From Eledone cirrhosa (lineage: Eukaryota), in assembly GCA_964016885.1 (NCBI GenBank), contig OZ024741.1:330832001-330896000 (forward strand): DNA of 64,000 nt, written 5' to 3'. Below the pieces are notes generated by a model. It ran no database searches and had not been told where the DNA came from. It saw only the letters and a program-made list of their open reading frames with translations. Position numbers and translations under genes: made by a program. Position 1 is the stretch's first letter. Each line of letters starts with the position of its first letter. Positions 1 to 47,456 of the stretch are shown here, one piece after another.

Positions 1-979
1 ATATACATATATACACATATGCATACAGGTACACATACATATATGCACGCATCAGTTTAGCCTACGTTTATTATAACGCCGGCCACTTTGTTCGTTTGTT
101 TGTCAACAAAGCGAACAGCCTGAATTTATGCCATACGGTGTTAAGGCAACCACGTCACCTTTTTGTTCAACACTGACACAGGAACGATGTACTAGTTTCA
201 AGCTTGTTAGCTATCATCAGCACCGTTTACCCATCTGCCAGATAGTTGAACGTTCGAAAGTATATACTTTCCTTATGAAAATTAACGGCTGAGCAGCCTA
301 ATTTGCATATTGAGTGAGTTAAATCGGTCAGGCATACCGAAAACGATTAGTTGAAAAAAAAAATGAAAACGGAATTTCATTTCTCACTCTTAGTATGGCA
401 CTTACTTAAATGTAAGTATGTATGTATACGTACATACATATATGTATACAGACGTACAGTAGCATGCATATATATATACATATACATATATATATATATA
501 TATACATATATACACATATGCATACAGGTACACATACATATATGCACGCATCAGTTTAGCCTACGTTTATTATAACGCCGGCCGCTTTGTTCGTTTGTTT
601 GTCAACAAAGCGAACAGCCTGAATTTATGCCATACGGTGTTAAGGCAACCACGTCACCTTTTTGTTCAACACTGACACAGGAACGATGTACTAGTTTCAA
701 GCTTGTTAGCTATCATCAGCACCGTTTACCCATCTGCCAGATAGTTGAACGTTCGAAAGTATATACTTTCCTTATGAAAATTAACGGCTGAGCAGCCTAA
801 TTTGCATATTGAGTGAGTTAAATCGGTCAGGCATACCGAAAACGATTAGTTGAAAAAAAAAAATGAAAACGGAATTTCATTTCTCACTCTTAGTATGGCA
901 CTTACTTAAATGTAAGTATGTATGTATACGTACATACATATATGTATACAGACGTACAGTAGCATGCATATATATATAC

Positions 980-1016
<37 letters not shown>

Positions 1017-1983
1017 TACACATATGCATACAGGTACACATACATATATGCACGCATCAGTTTAGCCTACGTTTATTATAACGCCGGCCGCTTTGTTCGT
1101 TTGTTTGTCAACAAAGCGAACAGCCTGAATTTATGCCATACGGTGTTAAGGCAACCACGTCACCTTTTTGTTCAACACTGACACAGGAACGATGTACTAG
1201 TTTCAAGCTTGTTAGCTATCATCAGCACCGTTTACCCATCTGCCAGATAGTTGAACGTTCGAAAGTATATACTTTCCTTATGAAAATTAACGGCTGAGCA
1301 GCCTAATTTGCATATTGAGTGAGTTAAATCGGTCAGGCATACCGAAAACGATTAGTTGAAAAAAAAAATGAAAACGGAATTTCATTTCTCACTCTTAGTA
1401 TGGCACTTACTTAAATGTAAGTATGTATGTATACGTACATACATATATGTATACAGACGTACAGTAGCATGCATATATATATACATATACATATATATAT
1501 ATATATATACATATATATACATATGCATACAGGTACACATACATATATGCACGCATCAGTTTAGCCTACGTTTATTATAACGCCGGCCGCTTTGTTCGTT
1601 TGTTTGTCAACAAAGCGAACAGCCTGAATTTATGCCATACGGTGTTAAGGCAACCACGTCACCTTTTTGTTCAACACTGACACAGGAACGATGTACTAGT
1701 TTCAAGCTTGTTAGCTATCATCAGCACCGTTTACCCATCTGCCAGATAGTTGAACGTTCGAAAGTATATACTTTCCTTATGAAAATTAACGGCTGAGCAG
1801 CCTAATTTGCATATTGAGTGAGTTAAATCGGTCAGGCATACCGAAAACGATTAGTTGAAAAAAAAAATGAAAACGGAATTTCATTTCTCACTCTTAGTAT
1901 GGCACTTACTTAAATGTAAGTATGTATGTATACGTACATACATATATGTATACAGACGTACAGTAGCATGCATATATATATAC

Positions 1984-2020
<37 letters not shown>

Positions 2021-2489
2021 TACACATATGCATACAGGTACACATACATATATGCACGCATCAGTTTAGCCTACGTTTATTATAACGCCGGCCGCTTTGT
2101 TCGTTTGTTTGTCAACAAAGCGAACAGCCTGAATTTATGCCATACGGTGTTAAGGCAACCACGTCACCTTTTTGTTCAACACTGACACAGGAACGATGTA
2201 CTAGTTTCAAGCTTGTTAGCTATCATCAGCACCGTTTACCCATCTGCCAGATAGTTGAACGTTCGAAAGTATATACTTTCCTTATGAAAATTAACGGCTG
2301 AGCAGCCTAATTTGCATATTGAGTGAGTTAAATCGGTCAGGCATACCGAAAACGATTAGTTGAAAAAAAAAAATGAAAACGGAATTTCATTTCTCACTCT
2401 TAGTATGGCACTTACTTAAATGTAAGTATGTATGTATACATACATACATATATGTATACAGACGTACAGTAGCATGCATATATATATAC

Positions 2490-2526
<37 letters not shown>

Positions 2527-3494
2527 TACACATATGCATACAGGTACACATACATATATGCACGCATCAGTTTAGCCTACGTTTATTATAACGCCGGCCA
2601 CTTTGTTCGTTTGTTTGTCAACAAAGCGAACAGCCTGAATTTATGCCATACGGTGTTAAGGCAACCACGTCACCTTTTTGTTCAACACTGACACAGGAAC
2701 GATGTACTAGTTTCAAGCTTGTTAGCTATCATCAGCACCGTTTACCCATCTGCCAGATAGTTGAACGTTCGAAAGTATATACTTTCCTTATGAAAATTAA
2801 CGGCTGAGCAGCCTAATTTGCATATTGAGTGAGTTAAATCGGTCAGGCATACCGAAAACGATTAGTTGAAAAAAAAAATGAAAACGGAATTTCATTTCTC
2901 ACTCTTAGTATGGCACTTACTTAAATGTAAGTATGTATGTATACGTACATACATATATGTATACAGACGTACAGTAGCATGCATATATATATACATATAC
3001 ATATATATATATATATATACATATATACACATATGCATACAGGTACACATACATATATGCACGCATCAGTTTAGCCTACGTTTATTATAACGCCGGCCGC
3101 TTTGTTCGTTTGTTTGTCAACAAAGCGAACAGCCTGAATTTATGCCATACGGTGTTAAGGCAACCACGTCACCTTTTTGTTCAACACTGACACAGGAACG
3201 ATGTACTAGTTTCAAGCTTGTTAGCTATCATCAGCACCGTTTACCCATCTGCCAGATAGTTGAACGTTCGAAAGTATATACTTTCCTTATGAAAATTAAC
3301 GGCTGAGCAGCCTAATTTGCATATTGAGTGAGTTAAATCGGTCAGGCATACCGAAAACGATTAGTTGAAAAAAAAAAATGAAAACGGAATTTCATTTCTC
3401 ACTCTTAGTATGGCACTTACTTAAATGTAAGTATGTATGTATACGTACATACATATATGTATACAGACGTACAGTAGCATGCATATATATATAC

Positions 3495-3531
<37 letters not shown>

Positions 3532-3999
3532 TACACATATGCATACAGGTACACATACATATATGCACGCATCAGTTTAGCCTACGTTTATTATAACGCC
3601 GGCCGCTTTGTTCGTTTGTTTGTCAACAAAGCGAACAGCCTGAATTTATGCCATACGGTGTTAAGGCAACCACGTCACCTTTTTGTTCAACACTGACACA
3701 GGAACGATGTACTAGTTTCAAGCTTGTTAGCTATCATCAGCACCGTTTACCCATCTGCCAGATAGTTGAACGTTCGAAAGTATATACTTTCCTTATGAAA
3801 ATTAACGGCTGAGCAGCCTAATTTGCATATTGAGTGAGTTAAATCGGTCAGGCATACCGAAAACGATTAGTTGAAAAAAAAAATGAAAACGGAATTTCAT
3901 TTCTCACTCTTAGTATGGCACTTACTTAAATGTAAGTATGTATGTATACGTACATACATATATGTATACAGACGTACAGTAGCATGCATATATATATAC

Positions 4000-4038
<39 letters not shown>

Positions 4039-4508
4039 TATACATATGCATACAGGTACACATACATATATGCACGCATCAGTTTAGCCTACGTTTATTA
4101 TAACGCCGGCCGCTTTGTTCGTTTGTTTGTCAACAAAGCGAACAGCCTGAATTTATGCCATACGGTGTTAAGGCAACCACGTCACCTTTTTGTTCAACAC
4201 TGACACAGGAACGATGTACTAGTTTCAAGCTTGTTAGCTATCATCAGCACCGTTTACCCATCTGCCAGATAGTTGAACGTTCGAAAGTATATACTTTCCT
4301 TATGAAAATTAACGGCTGAGCAGCCTAATTTGCATATTGAGTGAGTTAAATCGGTCAGGCATACCGAAAACGATTAGTTGAAAAAAAAAATGAAAACGGA
4401 ATTTCATTTCTCACTCTTAGTATGGCACTTACTTAAATGTAAGTATGTATGTATACGTACATACATATATGTATACAGACGTACAGTAGCATGCATATAT
4501 ATATATAC

Positions 4509-4547
<39 letters not shown>

Positions 4548-5015
4548 TATACATATGCATACAGGTACACATACATATATGCACGCATCAGTTTAGCCTA
4601 CGTTTATTATAACGCCGGCCGCTTTGTTCGTTTGTTTGTCAACAAAGCGAACAGCCTGAATTTATGCCATACGGTGTTAAGGCAACCACGTCACCTTTTT
4701 GTTCAACACTGACACAGGAACGATGTACTAGTTTCAAGCTTGTTAGCTATCATCAGCACCGTTTACCCATCTGCCAGATAGTTGAACGTTCGAAAGTATA
4801 TACTTTCCTTATGAAAATTAACGGCTGAGCAGCCTAATTTGCATATTGAGTGAGTTAAATCGGTCAGGCATACCGAAAACGATTAGTTGAAAAAAAAAAT
4901 GAAAACGGAATTTCATTTCTCACTCTTAGTATGGCACTTACTTAAATGTAAGTATGTATGTATACGTACATACATATATGTATACAGACGTACAGTAGCA
5001 TGCATATATATATAC

Positions 5016-5054
<39 letters not shown>

Positions 5055-5523
5055 TACACATATGCATACAGGTACACATACATATATGCACGCATCAGTT
5101 TAGCCTACGTTTATTATAACGCCGGCCGCTTTGTTCGTTTGTTTGTCAACAAAGCGAACAGCCTGAATTTATGCCATACGGTGTTAAGGCAACCACGTCA
5201 CCTTTTTGTTCAACACTGACACAGGAACGATGTACTAGTTTCAAGCTTGTTAGCTATCATCAGCACCGTTTACCCATCTGCCAGATAGTTGATCGTTCGA
5301 AAGTATATACTTTCCTTATGAAAATTAACGGCTGAGCAGCCTAATTTGCATATTGAGTGAGTTAAATCGGTCAGGCATACCGAAAACGATTAGTTGAAAA
5401 AAAAAAATGAAAACGGAATTTCATTTCTCACTCTTAGTATGGCACTTACTTAAATGTAAGTATGTATGTATACGTACATACATATATGTATACAGACGTA
5501 CAGTAGCATGCATATATATATAC

Positions 5524-5562
<39 letters not shown>

Positions 5563-6030
5563 TACACATATGCATACAGGTACACATACATATATGCACG
5601 CATCAGTTTAGCCTACGTTTATTATAACGCCGGCCGCTTTGTTCGTTTGTTTGTCAACAAAGCGAACAGCCTGAATTTATGCCATACGGTGTTAAGGCAA
5701 CCACGTCACCTTTTTGTTCAACACTGACACAGGAACGATGTACTAGTTTCAAGCTTGTTAGCTATCATCAGCACCGTTTACCCATCTGCCAGATAGTTGA
5801 ACGTTCGAAAGTATATACTTTCCTTATGAAAATTAACGGCTGAGCAGCCTAATTTGCATATTGAGTGAGTTAAATCGGTCAGGCATACCGAAAACGATTA
5901 GTTGAAAAAAAAAATGAAAACGGAATTTCATTTCTCACTCTTAGTATGGCACTTACTTATATGTAAGTATGTATGTATACGTACATACATATATGTATAC
6001 AGACGTACAGTAGCATGCATATATATATAC

Positions 6031-6072
<42 letters not shown>

Positions 6073-6487
6073 GCATACAGGTACACATACATATATGCAC
6101 GCATCAGTTTAGCCTACGTTTATTATAACGCCGGCCGCTTTGTTCGTTTGTTTGTCAACAAAGCGAACAGCCTGAATTTATGCCATACGGTGTTAAGGCA
6201 ACCACGTCACCTTTTTGTTCAACACTGACACAGGAACGATGTACTAGTTTCAAGCTTGGTAGCTATCATCAGCACCGTTTACCCATCTGCCAGATAGTTG
6301 AACGTTCGAAAGTATATACTTTCCTTATGAAAATTAACGGCTGAGCAGCCTAATTTGCATATTGAGTGAGTTAAATCGGTCAGACATACCGAAAACGATT
6401 AGTTGAAAAAAAAAATGAAAACGGAATTTCATTTCTCACTCTTAGTATGGCACTTACTTAAATGTAAGTATGTATGTATACGTACAT
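1..6487 (-). repeat. Tandem array of ~499-509 bp units (~13 copies, runs off the left edge); retrozyme-like, one hammerhead per unit on the minus strand
   Basis: Marker ttgaaaaaaaaaatgaaaacgg recurs at 351, 850, 1356, 1855, 2360, 2866, 3365, 3871, 4378, 4887, 5394, 5902, 6403; units near-identical except internal (TA)n and A-run length. Confidence 0.97.
183..227 (-). ncRNA. Minimal type I hammerhead ribozyme (first of 13 copies in the left array)
   Basis: Minus strand: AACGGUG-CUGAUGA-U-AGCU(AACA)AGCU-U-GAAA-CUAG-UA-CAUCGUU; 7-bp stem I, intact core, palindromic stem III ACUAGU, GUA cleavage triplet. Confidence 0.88.
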
Positions 6488-6624
6488 TGCCTTAACACCG
6501 TATGGCATAAATTCAGGCTGTTCGCTTTGTTGACAAACAAACGAACAAAGCGGCCGGCGTTATAATAAACGTAGGCTAAACTGATGCGTGCATATATGTA
6601 TGTGTACCTGTATGCATATGTGTA

Positions 6625-6663
<39 letters not shown>

Positions 6664-7130
6664 GTATATATATATGCATGCTACTGTACGTCTGTATACA
6701 TATATGTATGTACGTATACATACATACTTACATTTAAGTAAGTGCCATACTAAGAGTGAGAAATGAAATTCAGTTTTCATTTTTTTTTCAACTAATCGTT
6801 TTCGGTATGCCTGACCGATTTAACTCACTCAATATGCAAATTAGGCTGCTCAGCCGTTAATTTTCATAAGGAAAGTATATACTTTTGAACGTTCAACTAT
6901 CTGGCAGATGGGTAAACGGTGCTGATGATAGCTAACAAGCTTGAAACTAGTACATCGTTCCTGTGTCAGTGTTGAACAAAAAGGTGACGTGGTTGCCTTA
7001 ACACCGTATGGCATAAATTCAGGCTGTTCGCTTTGTTGACAAACAAACGAACAAAGCGGCCGGCGTTATAATAAACGTAGGCTAAACTGATGCGTGCATA
7101 TATGTATGTGTACCTGTATGCATATGTGTA

Positions 7131-7173
<43 letters not shown>

Positions 7174-7748
7174 GTATATATATATGCATGCTACTGTACG
7201 TCTGTATACATATATGTATGTACGTATACATACATACTTACATTTAAGTAAGTGCCATACTAAGAGTGAGAAATGAAATTCCGTTTTCATTTTTTTTTTC
7301 AACTAATCGTTTTGGTATGCCTGACCGATTTAACTCACTCAATATGCAAATTAGGCTGCTCAGCCGTTAATTTTCATAAGGAAAGTATATACTTTCGAAC
7401 GTTCAACTATCTGGCAGATGGGTAAACGGTGCTGATGATAGCTAACAAGCTTGAAACTAGTACATCGTTCCTGTGTCAGTGTTGAACAAAAAGGTGACGT
7501 GGTTGCCTTAACACCGTATGGCATAAATTCAGGCTGTTCACTTTGTTGACAAACAAACGAACAAAGCGGCCGGCGTTATAATAAACGTAGGCTAAACTGA
7601 TGCGTGGATATATGTATGTGTACCTGTCTGCATATGTGTATATATGTATATATATATATATATATATATGTATATGTATATATATATGCATGCTACTGTA
7701 CGTCTGTATACATATATGTATGTACGTATACATACATACTTACATTTA
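6487..7748 (+). repeat. Inverted arm of the same array (~2.5 units), hammerheads at 6915-6959 and 7425-7469
   Basis: Reverse complement of the unit starts at cgtaca|ttgccttaac (6487) and runs into (TA)n at ~7748. Confidence 0.95.
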
Positions 7749-7912: not shown

Positions 7913-8323
7913 AAGTTATGTTGGTGCCACAACATCCAGGCCGAAACAAATGAGATCGTGTAGGTGTCATGACAAAAAAAACACACAGTCCACGCTGTAA
8001 TGTGGCCGTGTAGGCAACACGGTAAAAACCTCCCAGCCCCACACTGTAAATGTGGTTGGTGTTAGGAAGGGCATCCAGCTGTAGAAAACCCGCCAGACAG
8101 TCCACGCTGTAATGCGGCCGTGTAGGCAACACGGTAAAAACCTCCCAGCCCCACACTGTAAATGTGGTTGGTGTTAGGAGGGGCATCCAGCTGTAGAAAA
8201 CCGGGCCAGACAGTCCTATGCGAACAAGACAATCACTCTTGCCTCAAGTGGGAAAACCCCCGTCCAAACCCATGCAAGCGTGGAACACGAACGTTAAACG
8301 TTGATGATGATGATGATGATGAT
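7909..8323 (+). mobile_element. RTE LINE 3' UTR fragment with internal ~111-bp duplication and (GAT)n tail
   Basis: Matches 31683-31987 of the full RTE; ends cgttaaacgttgatgatgat. Confidence 0.88.
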
Positions 8324-8365
8324 AATTATATATATATATATTTATATATATATTTATATATATAT

Positions 8366-10385
8366 ATCATCATCATCATCATCACCGTTTTACGTCCGTT
8401 CTTCCACGCTAGCATGGGTTAGACGGGTTGTCCTGTTGTGGGCAGTGTCTGGTCGGCTGACCATGCCTTGCTCATACAGGAACTGATTTGGCTTGATTTC
8501 TACAGCTGGATGCCCTTCCTAACACCAACCTCATTTACAGTGAGTGCTGGGTGCTTTTTCGTGGCGCCTACACGTCCACTTTACAGTGTGGGCTGGGTGC
8601 TTTTTTGCCGTGGCACCTCCACGACCACCTTGCGGTGGGGGTTGTGGGGGCATATTGTCTATATGCTTCAGCTTGTACCCATGGGAGGTCGGGTACTCTG
8701 TATTACTGCGTGACGCCAGAGGTCACGGTCGTGTGTCATTGCCTTTGAGAGGTGTAATTGGGTAAGGTCGGCTTTTATCACCTCATCCCAGGTCATGTTG
8801 GGTCTCCCCACTCCGCGGTTTCCATCAACTTCTAGTGCTCTGCACCTTTTTATGCAGCTGTCATCCTTCATACGCATCACATGTCCATACCAGCGCAACC
8901 GCCTCTACTGCACACAGCATTTGATTCCTCTTATGCTCAGTCTCTCTCTCAATTCATTTATGCTTTGTCGTTCACGTATATTACTGTTACACATCCATCG
9001 GAGCATGCAGGCTTCGTTTCTCTCTAATCTACGTAAGTCTTCCACCTTCAGCGCCCAGGTCTCACTACCATGCAACATCGCTGTTCGGATACACGCATCA
9101 TACAGTCTGCCTTTCATTCTGAGGGAGAAGCCTTTTGCAGCTAGCAGTGGTAGTAGTTCCCTAAACTTCTTCCATCCCGTTCTTACCCTAGTTATTGTAC
9201 TTTTTGAACACCCACCTCCGCTGCTAATTCGGTCACCTAGGTAGCAGAAGCTGTCTACTGTTTCTACAGAGCCCTCCCAGAGATTGGTGGTACTTGTTTC
9301 CTGTGGCTGTTTGCTGCATGTGAATCCTACATTCTTAATTAAGCTTCTTGAGATCCCGCTACATCTCTTGTGTACCCATTGTTTGCATTTGGGGCAGAGA
9401 ATGGAGTTCCTACCTACACCTTTCCTACATACTGAGCAAGGCCATTTCCCTGAGGGGATCTGGGTTCTGTTTTCTCGTCTACTTACAAGGACCTTAGTCT
9501 TTGTCATGTTGACTTTGAGACCTTTCTTTCTAGTCCCTGCTTCCAAGTTTGGAATTTATTCTCTAGTTCTACCATAGATTCAGCTATGAGTGCGAGGTCA
9601 TCAGCATACAGGAGTTCCCATGGGCATCCAGTCTTAAACTCCTCCGTTATTGCCTACAGGACTATGATGAACAGGAGGAGGCTAAGAACAGAGCCCTGGT
9701 GGACCCCAACCTGTACGCTAAATTCCTCGCTATACTCATTGCTAATCCTAACTTTGCTGACTGCTCCCCTATACATAGCTTGTACCGCTTTCACAAGCCA
9801 TTCATCTACTCCTAGTTTTCTAAGAGCCCACCAGATTACAGCACGTGGGACTCTGTCAAAGGCTTTCTCAAGGTCGACAAATGCCAAGTAGAGTGGCTTA
9901 CTTTTAGCTAGGTACTTTTCCTGTAATTGCCTCACAAGGAAGAGGGCATCAGTGGTGCCTCTTCCTGGTACAAATCCAAATTGCATCTCGTCTATTTTCA
10001 CCCGGTCCCTAATCAGCTGTGCTATAACTCTTTCTGTTACTTTCATGACCTGGTCCATCAACTTTATACCTCTATAGTTTCCTCTATCTAGTGCATTGCC
10101 TTACCTTTGTAGCAGTTGACAATGATGCTACTGCAGCAATCTTTTGGTATGGCACCTTCTAGTATTACCTGGTTAACGATACGTGTGGTTATAGTGTGAC
10201 CTACAGACCCAGATGCCTTCAGCATCTCGGCAGCTATACCCGATGGACCGGTTGCCTTCCCCATCTTCATATCTTTGATTGCCTTACTTACTACGCTGCT
10301 GCTGACTTGTACTGCTGGTCCCTCTATAGGGTCTACTTGGGGTAGGGTCTCTTCTTCCCATGCTTTCTCCTCATTTAGTAATCTA
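8366..10385 (-). mobile_element. 5'-truncated, frameshifted RTE LINE (RT and C-terminus)
   Basis: Minus ORFs with [39 protein letters not shown]; (CAT)n tail at 8366-8383. Confidence 0.93.
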
Positions 10386-10750: not shown

Positions 10751-11125
10751 ATAAACGGGAAAAAATGAAACGAAATTTCATTTCCCACTCTTAGTACAGC
10801 TGTTACTTAAATATAAGTATGTACACGTACATACATATATGTATACAGACGTACAGTAGTATGTATATATATATATACATACATGCACACATATATATAT
10901 GTACGTATGGATTCACCAAACATTTATTATAATGCTCGGTGTGTTTGTAAACAAACATCCCGTATTAAGCCGTAGTGTCTAGCAACCATCGTTGCTCGTT
11001 TGCTCAACACTGACAAAGAAACGCTGTACTAGTTTCAAGCTTATTAGCTATCGTCAGCAACGTATACCTTCCTGCCAGATTGTTGAACGTATATACTTAC
11101 CTTATGCATATTAACGGCTGAGTAA
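10751..11125 (-). mobile_element. Diverged single copy of the 505-bp family, hammerhead at 11021-11063
   Basis: Homologous to the array unit; ACGUUG-CUGACGA-UAGCU(AAUA)AGCUU-GAAA-CUAG-UA-CAGCGU. Confidence 0.88.
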
Positions 11126-13023
11126 TTGCATGACTAATTGACAATGGAATCCAACGTACCCTAAAACTCAGTACCCAGGACCTTAGACACCCTAAAGTAA
11201 ATCAACTGAAACTAAAAGCTCTTCCACACACAACCCCCTCAACAATGAGGCCTTTGACACCATCCTCCAGGACCTCCCTGTGTTAAAAAAGGACCATAGA
11301 ATGAACCAAATCCTACAAACACACGATATCATAAAGAGCAAAAGACAATCTAAGTCAATGAAAAACATCCAAACAAATGCCAAAGTACTGCCAACGACAA
11401 CAACGAAACCCACAGTAAAAAAATGCGATAGACCCAACTGTGGCATATGCATCAACCTAATAGAGGGTTCGGAATTCTATTTCAAAGGAGGACAACGTTT
11501 TATAGTAAAACACAATTTCACATGCGCATCAGAAAATCTAATATATGTATTAACTTGCCCAGGTTGTCGAGAACAATACATAGGCCAGACCAAAAACAGC
11601 CTCCGCCAACGCATGACTGTCCATAGATCCCAAATTAAAATACGGGAATACAGGAAAATACCACTGAGTGAGCACATTGATACCTGTGCCGCCCAAAATC
11701 ATCCCAACTTTAGAATCTTTCTCCTCTACAAATTTAAAGATAATGCCACCCACACCCAGCGCATCAGCAAGGAATCTCACTTTATTAACAAATACGGACC
11801 CCGTCTAAACACTTCTCCCTAAGATGAACCCACAACATACACACGTCAACATACATACCTACATCAGCATACATCCTACATACATCTCTATCCACATATA
11901 AACACAATGACATACGTAAACACACATGTTCTATGGTGCAACACAAATATATACAAATTTGCATACTTTTTGATGTCTATAGATATAAACGTGCTGACAC
12001 ACACACATACATATACGCACACATGCATTGCACACTGATGGGCACATACATATTTGTACACAAGTATTCCCATACGGCAGGGCCTAATGGATTCCCCTTG
12101 CAGTACGTACAATCTGGACACTCACACACACCTTGGTGTTATGACAATGCTATATATCATTTCACACCTTTTATTATTAATGTTTTTGATGTTCTATTGA
12201 GAGAATCGTTTTTACTGAAAATATCGAATAATGTACACCATTTTTACCAGTATCACAAAAATACTGGTCCACCCACACACACACACATACACACACACAC
12301 ATATACACACGCGTACACTAACATACAAAGAGACATACACACACTTCTCCGTATAAGTCAACAGCTGAAAAATATCTTTTAACATGTTAAAATATCCCCC
12401 ACACACGTACAGACACATTCCTACTGACCGATCCTTCTACCACGAATTACTCTGCTACACACACACTTGTCTTAATAGGCACCTGAACTGTTGACTTGTC
12501 AACATGACTGCAATTCACACACACATCCCTACTGACCATTATCACAACAATGAACCTCTTTACTACTACACACACACACACACACACATATTTGTTTTAA
12601 AAGACTTATTTTTCAGTGACTTGAGACAAACCTACATTTGGAGCAAAATCAATTTTTAACATTCACATGACCTCTACCGACCAATCAAAATTGTTTTGAC
12701 CACAAGAATTTTTGCAACACGAATTGGCGCAAAACTTATTTTAATACATCTGGAGCCACTTTTTTCACATAAAACAGGTAGAATCTCCAAAACTAATCAG
12801 ATTAGAGCAAACATCACGGGCGCTCTATCTCAAAATTATTTTTGAAAAGCATTAGAAATGCGCAACCGGTAAAAACTTAAAACCAAAACTGAATACTAAC
12901 CAATACTTATTACTAATTTTTACTTATTCCTAATTAAACTATTTTTCACTGGGAACAATTTGTCAGCATTTTCTTTTCCTTTTACTAATATATCATAACT
13001 CATGTGTTACACCTCTATTCTTT

Positions 13024-13028
<5 letters not shown>
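11126..13028 (+). mobile_element. 5'-truncated Penelope-like element: GIY-YIG endonuclease, long 3' UTR, hammerhead-like motif at 12839-12874
   Basis: ORF 11280-11822 with CDRPNCGIC, NLIYVLTCPGC..YIGQT..LRQRMTVH; ends in (TA)n. Confidence 0.85.
11280..11822 (+). pseudogene. Penelope-like GIY-YIG endonuclease domain (C-terminal part of the ORF)
   Basis: LIY...YIG motif, CxxC zinc motifs, conserved R/H/E/N; no RT domain retained. Confidence 0.88.
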
Positions 13029-13868: not shown

Positions 13869-13961
13869 TATATATATATACATATATGCACACATCATCA
13901 TCATCATTTTACATCCGCTTTTCCCTGCTTGCAAGGGTCACACATATATATATATATGTAT

Positions 13962-14768
13962 GTATAGTATATTTGGTAATATACTGTATGTTTAATTAAA
14001 AACGTTTTGAAGACCTTGCGCTATCATTTTAAAGTAGTGACTATGTCACTTACTTCTTTTTTCGGCAAAGGAAGGGAGAAAAGCTGACAGATTCTGTTTC
14101 ACACTGTTGGTGTTCCTCAGATCAACGTACTCCCCGACCTCTGCCGAAAATTATAGAGGCTGGGTTCTTATAGAATTCCAGTAATAATCAGGAACTGATT
14201 ATATAGAGCGATTGCAAGTCCAGTAAAAATTAAAAATTAGGATTGGTGCTCTGAAATAGCGATGTATACATGATAATATACCGTATGTTTAATTAAAAAC
14301 ATTGCCGAAAAAAGAAGTAAGTGACATAGTCACTACTTTAAAATGATAGCGCAAGGTCTTCAAAATGTTTTTAATTAAACATACGGTATATTATCAAATA
14401 TACTATACATACATTCATGTATACATCGCTATTTCAGAGCACCAATCTTAATTTTTTATTTTTGCTGGACCGGCAATCACTCTGTATAATCAGTTCCTGA
14501 TTATTACTGGAATTCTATAAGAATCCAGCCTCTATAATTTTCGGCAGAGGTCAGGGAGTATGTTGCTCTGAGGAACACCAACAGTGTGAAACAGAATCTG
14601 TCAGCTTCTCTCCCTTCCTTTGCCGAAAAAAGAAGTAACTGACAGTCACTACTTTAAAATGATAGTGTATGGTCTTCCAAATGTTTTTAATTAAACATAC
14701 GGTATATTACCAAATATACTATACATACATTCATGTATACATCGCTATTTCAGAGCACCAATCCTAAT
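13962..14768. mobile_element. ~318-bp retrozyme-like multimer with central inversion at ~14301
   Basis: ttgccgaaaaaagaagtaa recurs at 14302 and 14620; 13962-14301 is the reverse complement; hammerheads at 14074-14136 (-) and 14554-14614 (+). Confidence 0.88.
14554..14614 (+). ncRNA. Type I hammerhead ribozyme
   Basis: GGGAG..GCU-CUGAGGA-ACAC(CAACA)GUGU-GAAA-CAG(AAU)CUG-UC-AGC..CUCCC; stem I with internal loop, GUC site. Confidence 0.88.
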
Positions 14769-14926
14769 ATATATATATATATATAATATCGTCATCATCA
14801 TCATCATCATCATTTAACGTCCATCTTCCATGCTAGCATGGGTTAGACGGTTTTATTCCATTTGATGCGGGATGGATTGGGGGAGATAAGTGTTAGAGGA
14901 TTGCAATGTTTTTCTTTTGTTTTTAG

Positions 14927-21658: not shown

Positions 21659-24600
21659 TTAACGGTAATTCACATATTGTGCCAACTTGGCGGGCCAATG
21701 GACACGTCGTCCACTTCTCGTGACTGGAGATGAAACAGGTGGCTTGCTGGGACAGCAATCTGTTGGAGTTTCTGGTGGAGAGACTGTAACAGTATCCATG
21801 ATGGCTTTTTTTAATCTGTCCACGCTGACAGAATTCTGTTTACCATCTTGATCGAGAATAAAATATTTCGGATATTTTTTTAGAACACGATAAGGGCCAG
21901 AATATGGAGGTTGAAGATGAGCTGGGATGGTGTCGTTTCGAACGAAAACGTGTGTCCAATCATCAATGTCTGAAGGTACGTGTGTGGCCGTGTTCTGTTG
22001 ACGGGTGCTTGCAGGAACAAGGTGAGACATATATTGTCGAAGACGGTGTACGTATGTTCCTGGGTCTGGAACATCCTGAGGAGAGATGGGAGCAACCATC
22101 TGACCAGGTAGAACCAGGGTGATGCCGTATATAATTCTGCAGGTGTGTGTCCGAATTCCTCCTTAACAGTGGATCGAATGCCCAGAAGGATGAGTGGCAG
22201 GTATTCAAACCAGTGGGTCTTGTCTGAATATGCTTTTATTGCAGCTTTCAATTGGCGATGGAATCTTTCCACGAGACCATTAGCTTGCGGGTGATAAGCT
22301 GTCGTGCGGATGTGTTTACATCCTAACAGGCGAGTCAGTTCCCTGAAGAGGTGGGAGTCAAACTGGCGTCCTCTGTCCGTTGTTATCTTCGCTGGGGCGC
22401 CATAACGTGATACTCAATGTAAAAGCAAAGTTTTAGCGACTGTTTCCGCTGAGGTATTACTTATGGGAAAAGCCTCAGGCCAACGGGAAAATCGATCTAT
22501 GCAGGTGAGCAAGTGTATGCAATTCTGTGATGGTGGTAGAGGTCCGACGATATCGATATGCACATGATGAAATCGTGCATCAAGTAGCGCGAATGTGCCG
22601 AGTGGAGTTTTGATGTGTCTGTGGACTTTGGCCTTCTGGCAGGCAATGCAGCTCCTGGACCAGTCGTGCACGTCCTTGTTAATGTTAGTCCACACAAAAC
22701 GAGCAGAGATGAGTTTCTGTGTAGCCCAGATTCCCGGGTGAGACAAGCAGTGTAAAGCAGAAAAAACTTGTCGACGATGCATCTGTGGTTCGTACAGTCG
22801 TTCATTACCTTTAGAAAGGTCGCACCAAATTTGTCCCGGAGCAGAAGGAATGGGAACTTGCTGAAACTTGAGGGATGGCGAATCTCGGAGCTTGATAAAC
22901 TCTTCGTCAGTCTCTTGGTCAGCTGCGATCTGTTGAAGGTCGATGCCTGAATGCACATGTATTGCGTTCAGCAGGATTCGGGACAGGGCGTCGGCTGCTA
23001 CGTTGTCTGATCCCTTGATATGCCGAATATCAGTTGAATATTGGGAGACAAAATCCAGGTGTCAGAGTTCTCTCGGTGAATGTCGACCAGGTTTGGTACG
23101 GAACGCATAAACTAGTGGTTTATGGTCCGTGTAGATCACGAAATCCGATCCTTCGAGCATATGCCGAAAATGTTTAACCGAAAGGTAGGTTGCCAAGAGT
23201 TCGCGGCCAAACGTACTGTATTTGGTTTCTGCAGGTTGCAACCGCTTAGAAAACAAGGATAAGGGTTACCAAACGCCGTCGACATGTTGTTGTAAAACGC
23301 CTCCAATCCCTGTGTCTGATGCGTCCACTAGCAGCAAAAGAGGAGCGCCAGATCTGGGGAAAACGAGCATGGAAGCGTTTGCCAACATTTCCTTCAGGGG
23401 GTTAAAAGATGTTAATCCTTCCTCGTCAGAGTGATCTCTTCGTTTTTGCGAGTCCGGTTGCGAAGAAGGTCCGTGAGGAGTCTGGCTGCGTCGGCACAAT
23501 GAGGGATGAAACGCCTATAAAAATTCACCAAACCGAGGGATTCACGCAGTTTCCGAAGTGATGTAGGTGCGGGAAAATTGCGGATAGCTTCTACTTTCTC
23601 GGGAAGTGGACGAATGCCGTCTTTATCGATGATGTGCCCGAGAAAGGACAGTGAAGGAACGCCGAGAAGGCACTTGCTGGGGTTGATGATAATACCGTAC
23701 TCGGCCAAACGTTGGAAAAGAAGATCTAAGTGCTTCTCGTGTTCTTGCTCGGAAGTACTTGCTACTAGCACGTCGTCGATATACGCGTATACAAAGGGTA
23801 GATCACGTAACACGGTGTCAATAAACCGCTGAAAAGTTTGTGCAGCGTTGCGCAGACCGAACGGCATTCGCAGGAATTCAAATAAACCGAACGGTGTTGT
23901 GATTGCGGTCTTCGGAATATCTGCAGGCTCCATAGGTATCTGGTTATATGCTCGTACCAAATCTATCCTGGAAAAGATGCGTGCGCCTTGCAGAGAGGCA
24001 GAAAAGTCGTACAAGTGAGGTACAGGGTAATTATCGGGTACTGTAGAATTGTTAAGTGCACGTTAATTCCCACATGGTCGCCAATCATTCTCGGTTTTTT
24101 TAGGAACAAGGTGTAGGGTGCAGACCAGTTGCTGGAGGAAGGGCGAATGATTCCGAGGTCCAGCATGTGTTGAAACTCCTGTTTGGCGATTGTCAATCGG
24201 TCTGGAGGCAGTCTCCTTGGTTGGGCAGCTGTGGGTGGTCCTCTTGTCTCGATGTGGTGTGTGACACTATGCTTAATAGGTCCATCCTTAAATACCGGGC
24301 GAGTGATGTCTGGGTATTTCTGGAGAATGCCGTTGTAACGCGAAGGCTTTGACTGGCAAATTACAGGGCTCACTGTGGATTGCGTGGTAAATATACCTCT
24401 CACAGTGAGGTTTGTGGTAGTGTCAATAAGCCTCCGGTTCTTCATATCCACCAGAAGGTTGAAGTGGTGGAGAAAATCGGCTCCTAAGATAGGGGTCGGC
24501 AGGTCTGCCACGACGAACACCCATTGAAAACGACGCCTCAGGCCTAAATTGAGGGTCAGTGATTTCTCCCCGAAAGTCGGAATTGACGATTGGTTCACTG

Positions 24601-24700
24601 CCTGCAGAAAGGACGGTGCTGGATGTCTTTACCCGAGATTAGTGAAACAGGAATAACACTAACCTGGGCTCCTGTATCCACGAGGTAACGGATGCCTGTC
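21659..24700 (-). pseudogene. Gypsy pol (protease, RT, RNase H, integrase) in fragments
   Basis: [74 protein letters not shown]. Confidence 0.95.
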
Positions 24701-25619
24701 GCTTGGTCGTTGATAAAAAAAATAGACGACTTTTCTTTTCAGTACCAGGGGTGAACGTCGTCGCTAGGCCCTGGGTGGTATTCTGCAAAGAGCATGGGGC
24801 CCTACACTTAGATGCCTGAGTGCCGAATTCTTCGTGATACCAGCAGAGGTTGCCAGACACACGATTTTGACTGGGACTTCTGGATCTTCGACGGTGAAAG
24901 GGCCTGGATCGACTGTTGCTGCGCCGCCGGTGTGTTTGAAAGGTCAGGTTCTCTAATTGGTTTGAGAGGGCTTTAATTTGACCAGCCTGCTCTCTGATCA
25001 TAGCCCGCAGCTCTGAAATCTCGGAGGTGGAGTCCGAGGACGTTATGTAAGGGTTCATCCGATGATCTACCTGTGCCACTGAGGCAAAAGGGTTTGACAC
25101 CTCAGCGATCTTATCTGCGACACTCGCCGATTCTTCCGGGGTTGCTGACTCGTTAGTCGACGCCAGAATGCCCTGCATCGATAAGGGCAAGCGCTGTATA
25201 AACAGCCGTTTCAGCACATCTTCTGAAAGCAGCTGGTCTTGCATCAGCTGTCTCATCTTTCGCAATAGTTGGGTCGGTTTTCTGTCCCCCAATTCTGCTG
25301 CAGACACGAGTTGGTTGAGTCGTCTCTGCTGTGACGCGGTCGTTCGCTTGATCAATTCCTTGCGGAATGATTCATATGACACCGTGCCCGGCGGTGCCAT
25401 GACGAGGTCCCTCACCTCAGCCAAGACTTCTACCGGGACAGACCCAATGATGTAGGTGAGCTTTGCAGAATCGCTCTTAATTCTGTTAGCGGCGAATTGT
25501 GCTTCTATGTGAGCGAACCACAGAGTCGGGTCGTTGGACCAAAAAACGGGAACTTTCAATGTTAAAGCAGCTTGTGTGGTTGGTATCTCGGCCTCTTTCG
25601 TTGTTTGTGACATGTCCAT
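24639..25619 (-). CDS. Gypsy gag-like ORF
   Basis: PVFWSNDPTLWFAHIEAQF, LGDRKPTQLL, CWYHEEFG..CRAPC knuckle. Confidence 0.9.
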   Translation of the reverse strand: MDMSQTTKEAEIPTTQAALTLKVPVFWSNDPTLWFAHIEAQFAANRIKSDSAKLTYIIGSVPVEVLAEVRDLVMAPPGTVSYESFRKELIKRTTASQQRRLNQLVSAAELGDRKPTQLLRKMRQLMQDQLLSEDVLKRLFIQRLPLSMQGILASTNESATPEESASVADKIAEVSNPFASVAQVDHRMNPYITSSDSTSEISELRAMIREQAGQIKALSNQLENLTFQTHRRRSNSRSRPFHRRRSRSPSQNRVSGNLCWYHEEFGTQASKCRAPCSLQNTTQGLATTFTPGTEKKSRLFFLSTTKRQASVTSWIQEPRLVLFLFH

Positions 25620-25645
25620 GTTGGTATCTTCTTAGGCTGCTGTCT

Positions 25646-25996: not shown

Positions 25997-27369
<1,373 letters not shown>

Positions 27370-28240: not shown

Positions 28241-28639
28241 TTAATACGTGGACCAATCATAAGCCAGAGCCCCCCCCCCCACGCATCACCATTATTATTA
28301 TTACGCGGACCAAATCATAAGCCAGAGGCCTATACTATCGCTTGCACGGTTGCCTTCGATATATGATGGATGGATGGATGGACGGACGGACTGCGGAATG
28401 CTGGAGAGTGGAAGGGAGAGAAAAATCTGGACGCTCAGAGCGAAAATGCCAAAGTTAAAGTCAAATTCACCTCGTGGACGAGAATGCGAGCACTCCTCTT
28501 TGTTTCGTCCGCGGATGGCTAACATAACCCTATCTCCTCCCGCCCCCACCACCCCCACCCTCCAAACGCAACCCAAAACTTCAGAGTTGGTACCATAAAT
28601 GTAGGCACCCTAAAGGGTCGCGCTAACGAGGTTGTAGAA

Positions 28640-32319: not shown

Positions 32320-33077
32320 CATATATATATATATATATACATATATATATTTACATATATATGCATACATATATATATTTACATATATATGCATACATAT
32401 ATATATTTACATATATATGTATATTTACATATATATGCATACATATATATATTTACATATATATGTATATATACATATATATACATATATATATACACAT
32501 ATATATATATATACATATATATACATATATATATATACATTTTAGTCCAGAATTAGCCGTCGAAACGGCTTGTGCTCAGCCGTCGGGGTCCTAATCGTTC
32601 CTATTACCCACTCTGCTACCCTAAGTATTGAGTACTTTGGTGCGTTATGGTCCACCTGGTTCCTTACCACATTTCCTTCGTTATATATATATATATATAC
32701 ATATATATAGAGAGATAAATATACACGGTTGTGTATGATTGTGTATAAAAGATTATATTAATAAAAGGAATTCCAACTATATATGTATATCTGCATATAT
32801 ATATATATGTATATATATATATGTATATATATATATATGTATATATATATATGTATATATGTATATCTATATATGTATATATGTATATCTGTATATATAT
32901 ATATGTATATATATATATGTATATATATATATGTATATATATATATGTATATATATATATGTATATATGTATATGGATATATGTATATATATATATGTAT
33001 ATATGTATATATATATATGTATATGTATATATATATATATGTATATGTATATATATATATGTATATATATATGTATA

Positions 33078-33964: not shown

Positions 33965-35113
33965 ATGGCTAACCAGCAAAAATCCAAACAGAACTGGTCT
34001 GATAATGAAATCGACATTCTAATAAACACATGGCATTGCCTTTCCCAAACAGAAGACATACATGCTTCATCTCTGAACGACATTGCTAAACGTACAGTTC
34101 AATTTTTGAAAACTCGATCTGAACAACAGATTCAAAATAAATTAAAGCAAATCGAAATTGCTTTTAAATTAATCAATAAACATTTGGATAAACTACGGTG
34201 TGTTTTCTCTTCGAATGCTGTCCAGCAGCAGCAACAACAACAACAGCAGCTACAACAGCAACAACAACAACAGCTACAACAACAACATCAACAACAGCAA
34301 CAACAACAACAACAACGACAACAACAGTGTGAACCACTCCTTGATTCATCAACAATGGCCGATCTACTAAATGAAACTATTGACCCCCCAGTAGCCTCTG
34401 TCTCACAGCATGAAACGCCACATCCTTTCTCTGGCCCAGCAGTCCAATCATCACCACTGCCAACATCTCTGCCTACTACTACTACTACAACATTTTTGTC
34501 TACTGCTACGTCAAGGAATTTATCTTCTAATACCAGAACAAGAACTCTCCTTCCCACAGTCCACAAAGGTCGTCAAATCCTACCCAAACCATCATCTACA
34601 CCTCTCACAACACACACACCCACATACCCACCCACTCGAAACCCCATCATTTGCCGCTACTCTCTACGCTATAGAATATGTACGGATAGTGGCTGCAAAT
34701 TCACCCATTTACCTAGGACAAAACGATCTATCCCCACAAACAGCCACCACCATAATGCATACTCTAATTTAACACCAACACAACCACCAATAACTCAAAC
34801 AAGGAATCCACAAATCTGCCGTTTTTCCCTGCGAGACAGATTGTGTTTAGACCGGGATTGTCCCTTTACCCATCTCCCGGGGACCCGTCGGACAAATGAA
34901 AATAAAATTAAAAATAAAAGCAAAAACAAAAACCATAACCTACATAAAAATAACCACTACCACAGTCACCAACAGTCTTCTAAACAGGAAACTTCTTCCC
35001 CTTTTTTAGCCATAATGAATCTGGCAAAAGAACTGGAAAAAAACATTCGAGCTATCACCCAGCACCACCCTCCACTATCACCCCACTGCAGAAACTCCCA
35101 TTGCTGCCATTAA
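33965..35113 (+). CDS. LINE ORF1: Myb/SANT-like N-terminus, polyQ, two CCCH zinc fingers
   Basis: NWSDNEIDILINTW..RSEQQIQNKLKQI; CRYSLRYRICTDSGCKFTH and CRFSLRDRLCLDRDCPFTH. Confidence 0.8.
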   Translation: MANQQKSKQNWSDNEIDILINTWHCLSQTEDIHASSLNDIAKRTVQFLKTRSEQQIQNKLKQIEIAFKLINKHLDKLRCVFSSNAVQQQQQQQQQLQQQQQQQLQQQHQQQQQQQQQRQQQCEPLLDSSTMADLLNETIDPPVASVSQHETPHPFSGPAVQSSPLPTSLPTTTTTTFLSTATSRNLSSNTRTRTLLPTVHKGRQILPKPSSTPLTTHTPTYPPTRNPIICRYSLRYRICTDSGCKFTHLPRTKRSIPTNSHHHNAYSNLTPTQPPITQTRNPQICRFSLRDRLCLDRDCPFTHLPGTRRTNENKIKNKSKNKNHNLHKNNHYHSHQQSSKQETSSPFLAIMNLAKELEKNIRAITQHHPPLSPHCRNSHCCH

Positions 35114-38100: not shown

Positions 38101-38120
38101 CCATGGTGCCCAAATCCTGA
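35101..38120 (+). pseudogene. CR1-type ORF2 (APE 35101-36171, RT 36324-38120) broken by small indels in 36150-36325
   Basis: LTETHL, YRPP, GDFN, SDH; NYRPISLT, DFSKAFD, GVPQGTVLGP, FADD. Confidence 0.92.
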
Positions 38121-38607: not shown

Positions 38608-38628
38608 TATATACATATATATATATAT

Positions 38629-38744
38629 AGGTTGGAATAGAATGAAACGAAATTTCATTTTTCACTCTTAGTACGGCACTTACTTAAATGTAAGTATGTA
38701 TGTATACGTACATACATATATGTATACAGACGTACAGTAGCATG

Positions 38745-38780
<36 letters not shown>

Positions 38781-39211
38781 CATGCAGGCACACATACACA
38801 TATGTACGTGTCAGTTTAGCGAATATTTATTATAACATTCGCTTTGTTCGTTTGTTAACAAACAGACAGCCTGAATTTATGCCGTACGGTGTTAAAGCAA
38901 CCACGTCACCTTTTTGTTCAACACTGACACAGGAACGATGTACTAGTTTCAAGCTTGTTAGCTATCGTCAGCACCGTATACCCTTCTGCCAGATGGTTGA
39001 ACGTTCGAAAGTATATACGTTCCTTATGAAAATGAACGGCTGAGCAGCCTAATTTGCATATCGAGTGAGTTCAGTCGGCCAGGCGCACCGAAAACGATAA
39101 GTTGGAATAGAATGAAACGAAATTTCATTTCTCACTCTTAGTACGGCACTTACTTAAATGTAAGTATGTATGTATACGTACATACATATATGTATACAGA
39201 CGTACAGTAGC

Positions 39212-39275
<64 letters not shown>

Positions 39276-39332
39276 CTCTTTTACTCTTTTACCTGTTTCA
39301 GCCATCCGGCTGAGGCCATGCTGGGGCACCGC

Positions 39333-39387
<55 letters not shown>

Positions 39388-39965
39388 CAGGCACACATAT
39401 ATATATATATGTACGTATCAGTTTAGCGAATATTTATTATAACATTCGCTTTGTTCGTTTGTATACAAACGGACAGCCTGATTTATGCCGTACGATGTTA
39501 AGGCAACCACGTCACCTTTTTATTCAACACTGACACAGGAACGATGTACTAGTTTCAAGCTTGTTAGCTATCGAGTGAGAAATGAAATTTCGTTTCATTC
39601 TATTCCAACTTATCGTTTTCGGTGCGCCTGGCCGACTGAACTCACTCGATATGCAAATTAGGCTGCTCAGCCGTTCATTTTCATAAGGAAAGTATATACT
39701 TTCGAACGTTCAACCATCTGGCAGAAGGGTATACGGTGCTGACGATAGCTAACAAGCTTGAAACTAGTACATCGTTCCTGTGTCAGTGTTGAACAAAAAT
39801 AAATTCAGGCTGTCCGTTTGTTTACAAACGAACAAAGCGAATGTTATAATAAATATTCGCTAAACTGATACGTACATATATATATGTGTGCCTGTATGTA
39901 TATATATATACATGCTACTGTACGTCTGTATACATATATGTATGTACGTATACATACATACTTAC

Positions 39966-39966
<1 letters not shown>
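38629..39966. mobile_element. Third locus of the 505-bp family: ~2 minus-sense units plus inverted plus-sense arm (junction ~39573)
   Basis: HHR at 38935-38977 (-) and 39733-39775 (+), CUGACGA core; short SINE-like tail insert at 39273-39337. Confidence 0.9.
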
Positions 39967-39996
<30 letters not shown>

Positions 39997-46421: not shown

Positions 46422-46810
46422 TGTTAAAGTTATATTTAAAATTGTTGGGTTACAACTAGTAAATATTTATAACTGATATAAAAGCACTCGACAAATAGCG
46501 TAAACCTCTCCAAATGAAGTTGATGTTTATTACGGTATGTCGAATATATTTAATCTATAAAACTGTTTATATTGTATTTTGTCTGATGAAGGCATAGCAT
46601 ATTGTTAATATCACTGCTAGCGTAAACCTCTCCAGAATGAAGTTGATGTTTATTACGGTATGTCGAATGATATTTATCTATAAAACTGTTTATATTGTAT
46701 TTTGTCTGATGAAAGGCATAGCATATTGTTAATATGATATCCCCGAAATATATATAATGAAATAAATATGGTTTTATAAATATAGTTTTTCCATTTATTT
46801 AATATTGTAT
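46422..46810 (+). mobile_element. Hammerhead-bearing terminal fragment with ~121-bp tandem duplication
   Basis: tagcgtaaacctctcca twice; HHR 46699-46763 AUUUUGU-CUGAUGA..GAAA-UAUAUA-UA-AUGAAAU with weak stem II base. Confidence 0.6.
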
Positions 46811-46904
46811 ATATAATATATATATATTTATATATATATTTATATATACTATAAATATATATTATATATATACATATATATATATTATCATATATATATA
46901 TATA

Positions 46905-46943
<39 letters not shown>

Positions 46944-47286: not shown

Positions 47287-47336
<50 letters not shown>

Positions 47337-47456
47337 ATATATATACATACATATATATATATACATATATATATACATATATATATACATACATATATAT
47401 ATATATATACATATATATATACATACATATATATATATATATATACATACATATAT

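What the first reader, a model, noticed from the sequence alone, without database searches (positions are those of the whole stretch)
1..7748. Satellite-like array that is a hammerhead-ribozyme (retrozyme-like) multimer
Seen: every ~505-bp non-coding unit carries a type I hammerhead on one strand (7-bp stem I, CUGAUGA, GAAA, GUA site); 13 copies in the left array and 2 in the inverted arm. Known: non-LTR retrozymes in animals are tandem repeats with one HHR per unit that yield monomeric linear/circular RNAs, and minimal HHRs with palindromic stem III cleave as dimers. Inference: a read-through transcript would be cut into ~505-nt monomers that could circularise and be copied rolling-circle fashion by a Penelope RT. 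The unit is longer than the metazoan retrozymes I recall, and I know of no description in cephalopods.
Basis: partly seen in the sequence, partly recalled or inferred. Interest (0 to 1): 0.9.

Follow-up and report, generated by a model that had tools for sequence, protein, structure and literature searches.

The report
Penelope-inserted hammerhead retrozyme array
This repeat is one of thousands of copies of a small non-coding jumping RNA that carries a predicted self-cutting ribozyme in every unit, and the ends of its insertions bear the signature of Penelope-type retrotransposons, which likely paste it into the genome from a circular RNA.

Summary
In detail: 13 minus-strand and 2 plus-strand type I hammerheads in 499-510 bp units; the array runs 3.2 kb further left. 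It is not a local satellite. The exact 31-nt ribozyme core occurs 13,428 times genome-wide (control 0). Copies form back-to-back arms (18 of 18 close opposite-strand pairs), both arms end on (TA)n at one of two fixed points about 60 nt apart, and a two-armed insertion has one short and one long end (36 of 38 by script; the other two are miscalls). These are the published hallmarks of Penelope-like elements (PLEs); an intact Neptune-like PLE in this genome does the same (6 of 6). Arms cross the cleavage site without stopping, and the unit folds into a conserved, covarying structure. Cleavage, transcription and the circle were not shown (no RNA run), no PLE with a homologous terminal repeat was found, and Rfam gives no hit at threshold. 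Verdict: a new member of the known non-LTR retrozymes, with unusually direct genomic evidence that PLE enzymes mobilise them. Unit length is not exceptional.

The parts
1..6487 (-). Left arm of the retrozyme insertion, 12.8 units inside the window; continues 3,189 bp left of the window and ends there at the 'long' 3' end (monomer position 349)
183..6279 (-). 13 type I hammerheads, at 183-227, 682-726, 1188-1232, 1687-1731, 2192-2236, 2698-2742, 3197-3241, 3703-3747, 4210-4254, 4719-4763, 5226-5270, 5734-5778, 6235-6279
6487..6488 (.). Head-to-head junction of the two 5'-truncated arms (monomer positions 260 and 41, 1-nt overlap)
6487..7748 (+). Right (inverted) arm, 2.5 units, ending at the 'short' 3' end (monomer position 288)
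6915..6959 (+). Hammerhead; predicted cut after 6952
7425..7469 (+). Hammerhead; predicted cut after 7462
6953..7462 (+). One complete cut-to-cut monomer (510 nt), the predicted unit RNA or circle
7095..7225 (+). (TA)-rich microsatellite hairpin inside the unit; source of most length variation
7247..7305 (+). 'Tail' between the short and long 3' end points (the two inferred reverse-transcription start sites), here inside a full unit
   Evidence: PLE tail concept from PMC11167929
7749..7909 (.). (TA)n target tract joined to the short end
38627..39968 (.). Second, older (about 90% identical) two-armed insertion of the same family: long end left, short end right, hammerheads at 38934-38977 (-) and 39733-39776 (+), (TA)n on both sides
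10751..11124 (-). Third copy, 424-bp subfamily, hammerhead at 11020-11063, long end on (TA)n
11127..13025 (+). 5'-truncated Neptune-like PLE (GIY-YIG frame 11196-11822) joined head-to-head, 2 nt apart, to the third copy; candidate source of the mobilising enzyme

Best explanation
The array is one insertion of a dispersed, non-coding non-LTR retrozyme whose units are likely transcribed, cut by dimeric hammerheads into ~505-nt monomers, ligated to circles and likely copied back into (TA)n DNA by the reverse transcriptase-endonuclease of a Penelope-like element. Shown: hammerhead fold in every unit, high copy number, back-to-back arms, two fixed 3' ends with one of each per insertion, (TA)n at the ends, random 5' truncation. 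Inferred: the PLE protein nicks both strands of a (TA)n tract and primes two cDNAs at two internal sites of the RNA about 60 nt apart; each runs past the ligated cleavage site for a variable number of rounds, and the two cDNAs are joined at their far ends, often through short overlaps, giving the back-to-back multimer. The weak ribozyme (1-bp helix III with a palindromic loop, U-U at the base of helix II) is predicted to cut only when two units pair, which would protect the monomer circle. Some later DNA-level duplication likely lengthened the left arm of this locus.
For: Dispersal: 13,428 exact cores, 16,013 matches to a second anchor, 97-100% identical arrays on contigs C1, C2, C4, C6, C11. 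Orientation: among the first 100 cores listed, 18 of 18 opposite-strand neighbours within 1.6 kb are minus-then-plus (counted by hand). Ends: 36 of 38 scripted two-armed pairs are one short plus one long, p=3e-9 against 0.5; in the other two (L057, L075) the script took an internal unit and the outermost end is long (sequences). Positive control: a PLE with an intact 784-aa RT/GIY-YIG frame has two ends about 37 nt apart on (TA)n, one of each in 6 of 6 two-armed copies (one read by eye). Literature: inverted 5'-truncated copy, one-sided tail and (TA)n bias are PLE traits (PMC8557442); a purified PLE nicks and extends both strands and starts internally at two sites that define the tail, called unique to PLEs (PMC11167929). 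Template continuity: 179 of 187 post-cut sequences are preceded by the intact core end, 7 by a mutated core, 1 is an inversion junction 4 nt past the site; 78 inner ends spread over positions 10-503. One template per insertion: C6 has 13 units with no substitution across both arms; C11 and C4 each carry their own microsatellite pattern in all units. RNA-level selection: circular fold z = -7.9 to -10.5; 98.8% of 1,679 cells paired in 80 non-microsatellite pairs, 8 pairs with two-sided changes, including stem I G-U to U-G and a helix spanning about 240 nt. Other hammerhead families here share the U-U and palindromic helix III with different stem sequences; the axolotl retrozymes have these same weak features and cut as dimers (PMC7229834).
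Against: No RNA evidence at all; cleavage and circle are untested. In the 2026 preprint 8 of 9 Xenopus dimers did not cleave. For the anole PLE, ribozyme cleavage was not needed and uncut RNA was the main substrate, so an uncut multimer fits the ends equally well. No PLE terminal repeat homologous to the unit was found in 90 GIY-YIG loci with 1.5-kb flanks or in the last 310 nt of the Neptune-like element; no canonical hammerhead was found in that element's 4.7-kb unit, so the partner is unidentified. The tail (about 55-62 nt) is longer than the published 30-40. 47 of the 72 loci were picked for an intact core, which favours crossings of the cut site. Covarying cells come largely from one subfamily split (pairs-with-change 8 against 6.1 shuffled, 35 of 500 shuffles reach it), and the fold z-scores include the self-complementary (TA)n insert. 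The minimum-energy fold of the 45-nt motif is an alternative (-9.5 kcal/mol) to the hammerhead (-7.4 without helix III). G10.1-C11.1 of canonical hammerheads is absent. A variant recurs every 4-5 units in the window's left arm, pointing to local duplication or a heterogeneous template.
Confidence: 0.65

Rival explanations
1. Same PLE machinery, but the template is a linear, uncut read-through transcript of existing arrays; the ribozyme is weak or used at another step and no circle is needed.
For: Anole PLE uses uncut RNA in vitro and no reads ended at its cut site; most Xenopus dimers did not cut; all end signatures and the seamless crossings fit equally; the 4-5-unit recurrence in the window arm could be copied from a multimer.
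Against: C6 has 13 near-uniform units (11 of 505 nt) in both arms, whereas its closest sampled relative, the window array, never has a long run of one haplotype; insertions holding a single core or two units are the majority, so long masters are scarce; the core is conserved across subfamilies 20% apart; retrozymes of coral, mussel and axolotl do make circles.
Confidence: 0.25
2. A satellite DNA: a relic PLE terminal repeat amplified in place by unequal crossing-over, the hammerhead being a passenger (the local-amplification route proposed in the 2026 preprint).
For: Recurring haplotype blocks in the left arm; no RNA seen; no Rfam hit at threshold.
Against: Thousands of dispersed short insertions with fixed 3' ends and one-of-each tails; both arms share the same unit; compensatory changes that make sense as RNA wobble pairs. 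It can explain part of this arm's length, not the family.
Confidence: 0.07
3. A non-autonomous Helitron-like rolling-circle DNA element, which can also give tandem arrays with fixed 3' ends (recalled, no call).
For: Tandem units, fixed 3' ends, variable 5' ends, A/T targets.
Against: Two alternative ends in back-to-back arms match the PLE control in this genome; a strand-specific ribozyme fold is conserved. Helitron termini were not searched for.
Confidence: 0.03

Closest known systems
Metazoan non-LTR retrozymes (coral, mussel, axolotl; Cervera and de la Pena 2020, PMC7229834)
   Same: Non-coding, low-GC tandem units, one type I hammerhead each, thousands of copies, highly paired predicted circle, co-occurring PLEs. 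Helix III as in axolotl HHR_Amex1 (one pair, palindromic tetraloop); U-U at the base of helix II as in HHR_Amex2.
   Different: 420-540 nt units against 150-450 there; internal (TA) hairpin; back-to-back arms and tail-type ends are not mentioned in its main text ('inverted' 0 times; supplement unreadable). RNA shown there, not here.
Vertebrate non-LTR retrozymes as non-autonomous PLE derivatives (Li, Clavereau, Pollet, bioRxiv 10.64898/2026.07.22.740005)
   Same: Same class and same proposed PLE link; 51-972 bp units; up to 14,255 copies.
   Different: Their evidence is co-occurrence and homology to PLE terminal repeats (24 of 57 Xenopus families matched known elements); no mollusc sampled; 'tail' and 'inversion' occur 0 times. 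Here the link is the insertion footprint, and no homologous PLE was found.
Endonuclease-bearing Penelope-like elements (Neptune, Penelope/Poseidon, Naiad; PMC8557442, PMC11167929, PMC4209133)
   Same: Inverted 5'-truncated arm, tail on one end only, (TA)n targets, tandem copies, type I hammerhead with palindromic helix III.
   Different: No reading frame; tail about 60 nt instead of 30-40; whole element is one ~0.5-kb unit.

Membership tests
non-LTR retrozyme | Type I hammerhead in each tandem unit | tested here: met
   15 of 15 full positions in the array; descriptor hits 210 against 0 in shuffles
non-LTR retrozyme | Short tandem unit, GC under 50%, no protein | tested here: met
   499-510 bp, GC 0.35; no frame of 120 aa or more lies within a unit; three low-complexity frames touch 1-7748, one over the junction and two running into the flank
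non-LTR retrozyme | Many dispersed copies, monomers to multimers | tested here: met
non-LTR retrozyme | No LTR-internal-LTR layout, PBS or PPT | tested here: inconclusive
   No LTR layout in 72 loci; PBS and PPT were not searched for
non-LTR retrozyme | Stable, highly self-paired predicted circle | tested here: met
   about 70% paired, z -7.9 to -10.5 for three subfamilies; conserved helices
non-LTR retrozyme | Self-cleavage of monomer or dimer transcripts | not testable with these tools
   needs in vitro transcription
non-LTR retrozyme | Linear and circular unit-length RNA in tissues | not testable with these tools
   no RNA holder listed
non-LTR retrozyme | Target-site duplication, when present, over 4 bp | tested here: inconclusive
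   ends lie in (TA)n, where a duplication cannot be read
PLE-mobilised element | Inverted 5'-truncated copy at the 5' end | tested here: met
   18 of 18 close opposite-strand pairs; 39 junctions
PLE-mobilised element | Tail on one end only | tested here: met
   36 of 38; length about 55-62 nt, above the published 30-40
PLE-mobilised element | (TA)n or AT-rich target | tested here: met
   exceptions include L072 and ends where a later LINE tail sits in the tract
PLE-mobilised element | Homology to the terminal repeat of an autonomous PLE | tested here: inconclusive
   none in 90 GIY-YIG loci, out of more than 10,000 candidates
autonomous PLE | RT and GIY-YIG reading frame | tested here: not met
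   tblastn of the Neptune frame hits only separate neighbours
Rfam hammerhead families (clan CL00010) | Score at or above gathering threshold | tested here: not met
   none; HH9 18.5 bits against 52

The most novel reading that the evidence does not exclude
These insertions are the first direct genomic record of how an animal ribozyme circle is retrotransposed: a PLE dimer nicks both strands of (TA)n, primes at two different fixed sites on the circle, one per strand, and rolls out two multimers that meet back to back. The strict one-short-one-long rule would show that the two priming events are coupled in vivo, which the in vitro PLE work did not see, and the genome holds a whole guild of hammerhead families riding the same machinery, some fused arm-to-arm with each other.
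Probability: 0.45. Interest if true: 0.75.

Novelty: new member of a known kind. Interest (0 to 1): 0.55.

Why it matters
Which enzyme moves animal retrozymes, and how, is stated as open in both the 2020 paper and the 2026 preprint. Here a large, recently active family shows the PLE-specific tail and inversion in nearly every two-armed insertion, beside an intact, young PLE. That gives two predicted priming sites on a 0.5-kb RNA and a candidate enzyme, which can be put straight into the published in vitro PLE assay, with linear and circular templates. A minimal RNA that a PLE protein inserts at (TA)n would also be a compact cargo model.

Tried and rejected
Rfam: nothing at threshold; microRNA-family matches are (TA)n artefacts. 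Sequencing runs: no RNA holder listed; the four runs laid were contigs of unknown kind, one gave nothing, so they say nothing on expression or RNA ends; they were used only for variant positions. Partner search: Neptune-like family next door, a second GIY-YIG family and Pfam PF01541 loci gave only unrelated neighbouring insertions. Large palindrome around the array: rejected, the inverted match of the left flank at window 8366-8664 is a 299-bp, 98% copy of a common LINE end. Pile-up of 5' ends at the cut site, expected for a linear monomer template: not seen. The retrozyme-Neptune joint at 11124/11127 as proof of the partner: not accepted, since of 20 single-arm loci examined 3 abut inverted RTE-type LINE ends and 3 another short element in the same way. 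First end-calling script had a wrong anchor and one BLAST run returned nothing from a parameter error; both were redone. The end script misses long ends of the 424-bp subfamily; those read by eye (L047, L060, L070, L074, L078) are also one of each. Eleven two-armed loci had one end lost in the internal microsatellite, interrupted or outside the fetched stretch and were not counted. Earlier scan notes: none. Lunse et al. (PMC5785218) is not held; only its title was seen.
Full report
Observation. Window 1-6487 is a head-to-tail array of 499-509 bp units and 6487-7748 an inverted arm of the same unit. A type I hammerhead lies in each unit: 13 on the minus strand, 2 on the plus strand. It has an intact core, a 7-bp stem I (6 bp conserved), a U-U followed by a 4-bp stem II, and a helix III of one pair closed by the palindrome CUAG, which two copies can pair into six base pairs (duplex -4.8 kcal/mol). 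Rfam has no match at threshold; HH9 aligns end to end at 18.5 bits. A descriptor found 210 hammerheads in 693,660 fetched bases, 163 of this family, and none in five shuffles. No call names the organism; the genome has 3.0 Gb.

Extent. With the neighbouring stretch, the insertion spans G000:C2:330828812-330839748: about 19 units leftward and 2.5 rightward, joined head to head at monomer positions 260 and 41 (position 1 is the base after the predicted cut). The exact 31-nt core occurs 13,428 times, control 0; a second anchor 16,013 times. Only the first 100 places of each list were shown, all on C1. I fetched all clusters of the first list (47 stretches), 20 of the 21 further clusters of the second, and four top BLAST loci on C1, C4, C6, C11. 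Subfamilies range from 99% to about 80% identity, with units of 420-538 bp. The number of insertion sites was not measured; it is in the thousands.

Insertion anatomy. Opposite-strand neighbours within 1.6 kb are minus-then-plus in 18 of 18 cases (hand count), so the 3' ends face outwards. Those outer ends fall at two places, about position 284-288 or about 348, and are joined to (TA)n. A script found 38 two-armed pairs with both ends callable: 36 have one short and one long end; in the two others it had taken an internal unit, and the outermost end is long. Eleven two-armed loci with a lost or interrupted end were left out. Inner ends are spread over the whole unit (78 ends, positions 10-503), and the arms' BLAST hits overlap by 1-34 nt at 29 of 39 junctions, a rough sign of microhomology (one junction is counted twice because the locus is duplicated).

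Control and literature. A young Neptune-like PLE, with a truncated copy at window 11127-13025, has many intact 784-aa RT/GIY-YIG frames (the clade name is my reading of the zinc-finger linker described). Its insertions are also back to back, with two ends about 37 nt apart on (TA)n, one of each in 6 of 6 two-armed copies among 16 regions chosen for long frames. Craig et al. (PMC8557442; passages) list the inverted 5'-truncated copy, the 30-40 bp tail often at one end only, and (TA)n bias as PLE traits. Frangieh et al. (PMC11167929; parts 1-2 of 4) show that a purified PLE nicks and extends both strands of AT-rich DNA and starts reverse transcription inside the RNA at two sites that define the tail, a signature they call unique to PLEs; they saw no strand difference in start site, and ribozyme cleavage was not needed. 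Internal priming is what a circular template would need (inference).

Template. Arms do not stop at the cut site: 179 of 187 post-cut sequences follow an intact core, 7 a mutated core, and 1 is an inversion junction 4 nt beyond it, although 47 of 72 loci were selected for an intact core. The template is therefore continuous there: a ligated circle or an uncut multimer. For one monomer copied many times: C6 has 13 units without a substitution in both arms, and C11 and C4 carry private microsatellite patterns in all units. Against, for this locus: a variant at position 105 with an 11-T run recurs every 4-5 units in the left arm, so part of its length likely comes from local duplication.

RNA structure. 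Three subfamilies fold as circles with about 70% of bases paired, z -7.9 to -10.5 on 25 shuffles each, inflated by the (TA) insert. On 21 monomers, one per locus, 80 pairs outside the microsatellite hold in 98.8% of 1,679 cells, against 96.5% shuffled and 31-41% slid; 8 pairs change on both sides, but 35 of 500 shuffles reach that number and most changes trace to one subfamily split. Common variants in the laid contigs fall at N7, loop II and stem I, none in the catalytic core. Independent hammerhead families in this genome repeat the U-U and the palindromic helix III with other stem sequences. In axolotl the same two weak features give poor monomer and efficient dimer cleavage (PMC7229834; parts 2-4 of 6; supplement not readable, and it may hold further taxa or insertion drawings).

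What was not found. No RNA run. No PLE terminal repeat homologous to the unit in 90 GIY-YIG loci. The direct head-to-head joint of a retrozyme arm with the Neptune-like copy at 11124/11127 is suggestive, but similar joints occur with other elements.

Comparison and novelty. It works like, and on testable features belongs to, the non-LTR retrozymes. The 2026 preprint (10.64898/2026.07.22.740005; parts 1-3 of 5; supplements closed) already argues that these derive from PLEs, reports units of 51-972 bp, sampled no mollusc, and found cleavage in 1 of 9 dimers. Cervera and de la Pena 2014 (PMC4209133; parts 1-2 of 4) proposed circles as templates for more-than-unit PLE insertions and noted opposite-strand hammerhead pairs 100-700 bp apart, so the idea and the inversion have precedent. 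Searches for octopus or cephalopod with retrozyme, hammerhead, ribozyme or Penelope, and for retrozymes with inverted or PLE-type ends, listed no description of this family or of the one-short-one-long rule in a retrozyme; the library lacks most subscription journals.

Verdict. Real, a new member of a known kind, with a mechanistic footprint that makes the open question of retrozyme mobilisation testable. Retrozyme moved by PLE enzymes: about 0.9. With the circle as template: 0.65. Interest 0.55.

Noticed in passing
window 13950-14780: Another hammerhead repeat family (cores at 14097-14120 minus, 14568-14591 plus) in a back-to-back insertion between (TA)n tracts; shares tail-like sequence with the 310-bp family below.
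   Followed up: partly
L130:6950-8000; L046:5161-6400; L154:2600-3500: A second tandem retrozyme family, 310-bp unit, U-U and AACA loop like this one but different stems; same inversion, short and long ends about 35 nt apart, (TA)n.
   Followed up: partly
window 26960-27140, 53874-54825, 56513-56540, 63138-63165, 46577-47651: Further hammerhead families, mostly as opposite-strand pairs; at least eight families in the fetched DNA, one with a long stem II and a 123-bp tandem at 46496-46735.
   Followed up: partly
window 10751-13025: Retrozyme arm and Neptune-like PLE joined head to head across 2 nt, each ending on (TA)n; may be one chimeric insertion or a deletion between two.
   Followed up: partly
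L053:3152-3220; L086:2517-2606; L152:1320-1392; window 32550-32640: A short fold-back element with its own short and long ends on (TA)n; in three loci it forms the opposite arm of a retrozyme insertion, retrozyme long and partner short each time.
   Followed up: partly
L119:4362-9162 (G000:C5:17088362-17093162): The active Neptune-like PLE has a 455-aa frame without Pfam match upstream of the RT/GIY-YIG frame, and no canonical hammerhead in its 4,734-bp unit.
   Followed up: no
L121-L123 (G000:C2:359514700-359535300): A 3.9-kb block holding a two-armed Neptune insertion is itself repeated five times in tandem.
   Followed up: no
L046:1200-1263 and 4895-4940: About 27 bp of left-flank DNA reappear inverted beyond the right arm, suggesting copying of target DNA during insertion.
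   Followed up: no
window 28523-31627, 8300-10100, 34984-38120, 21659-25631: An apparently intact 1,034-aa LINE frame (endonuclease, RT, PHD-like finger), a broken relative, a CR1-like LINE and a broken Gypsy-type retrotransposon (labels for the last three are my reading).
   Followed up: no
window 42873-43370, 48641-49105, 55861-56280, 60410-61877: Fragments of other GIY-YIG/PLE families; the first has over 60,000 first-look candidates in the genome.
   Followed up: partly
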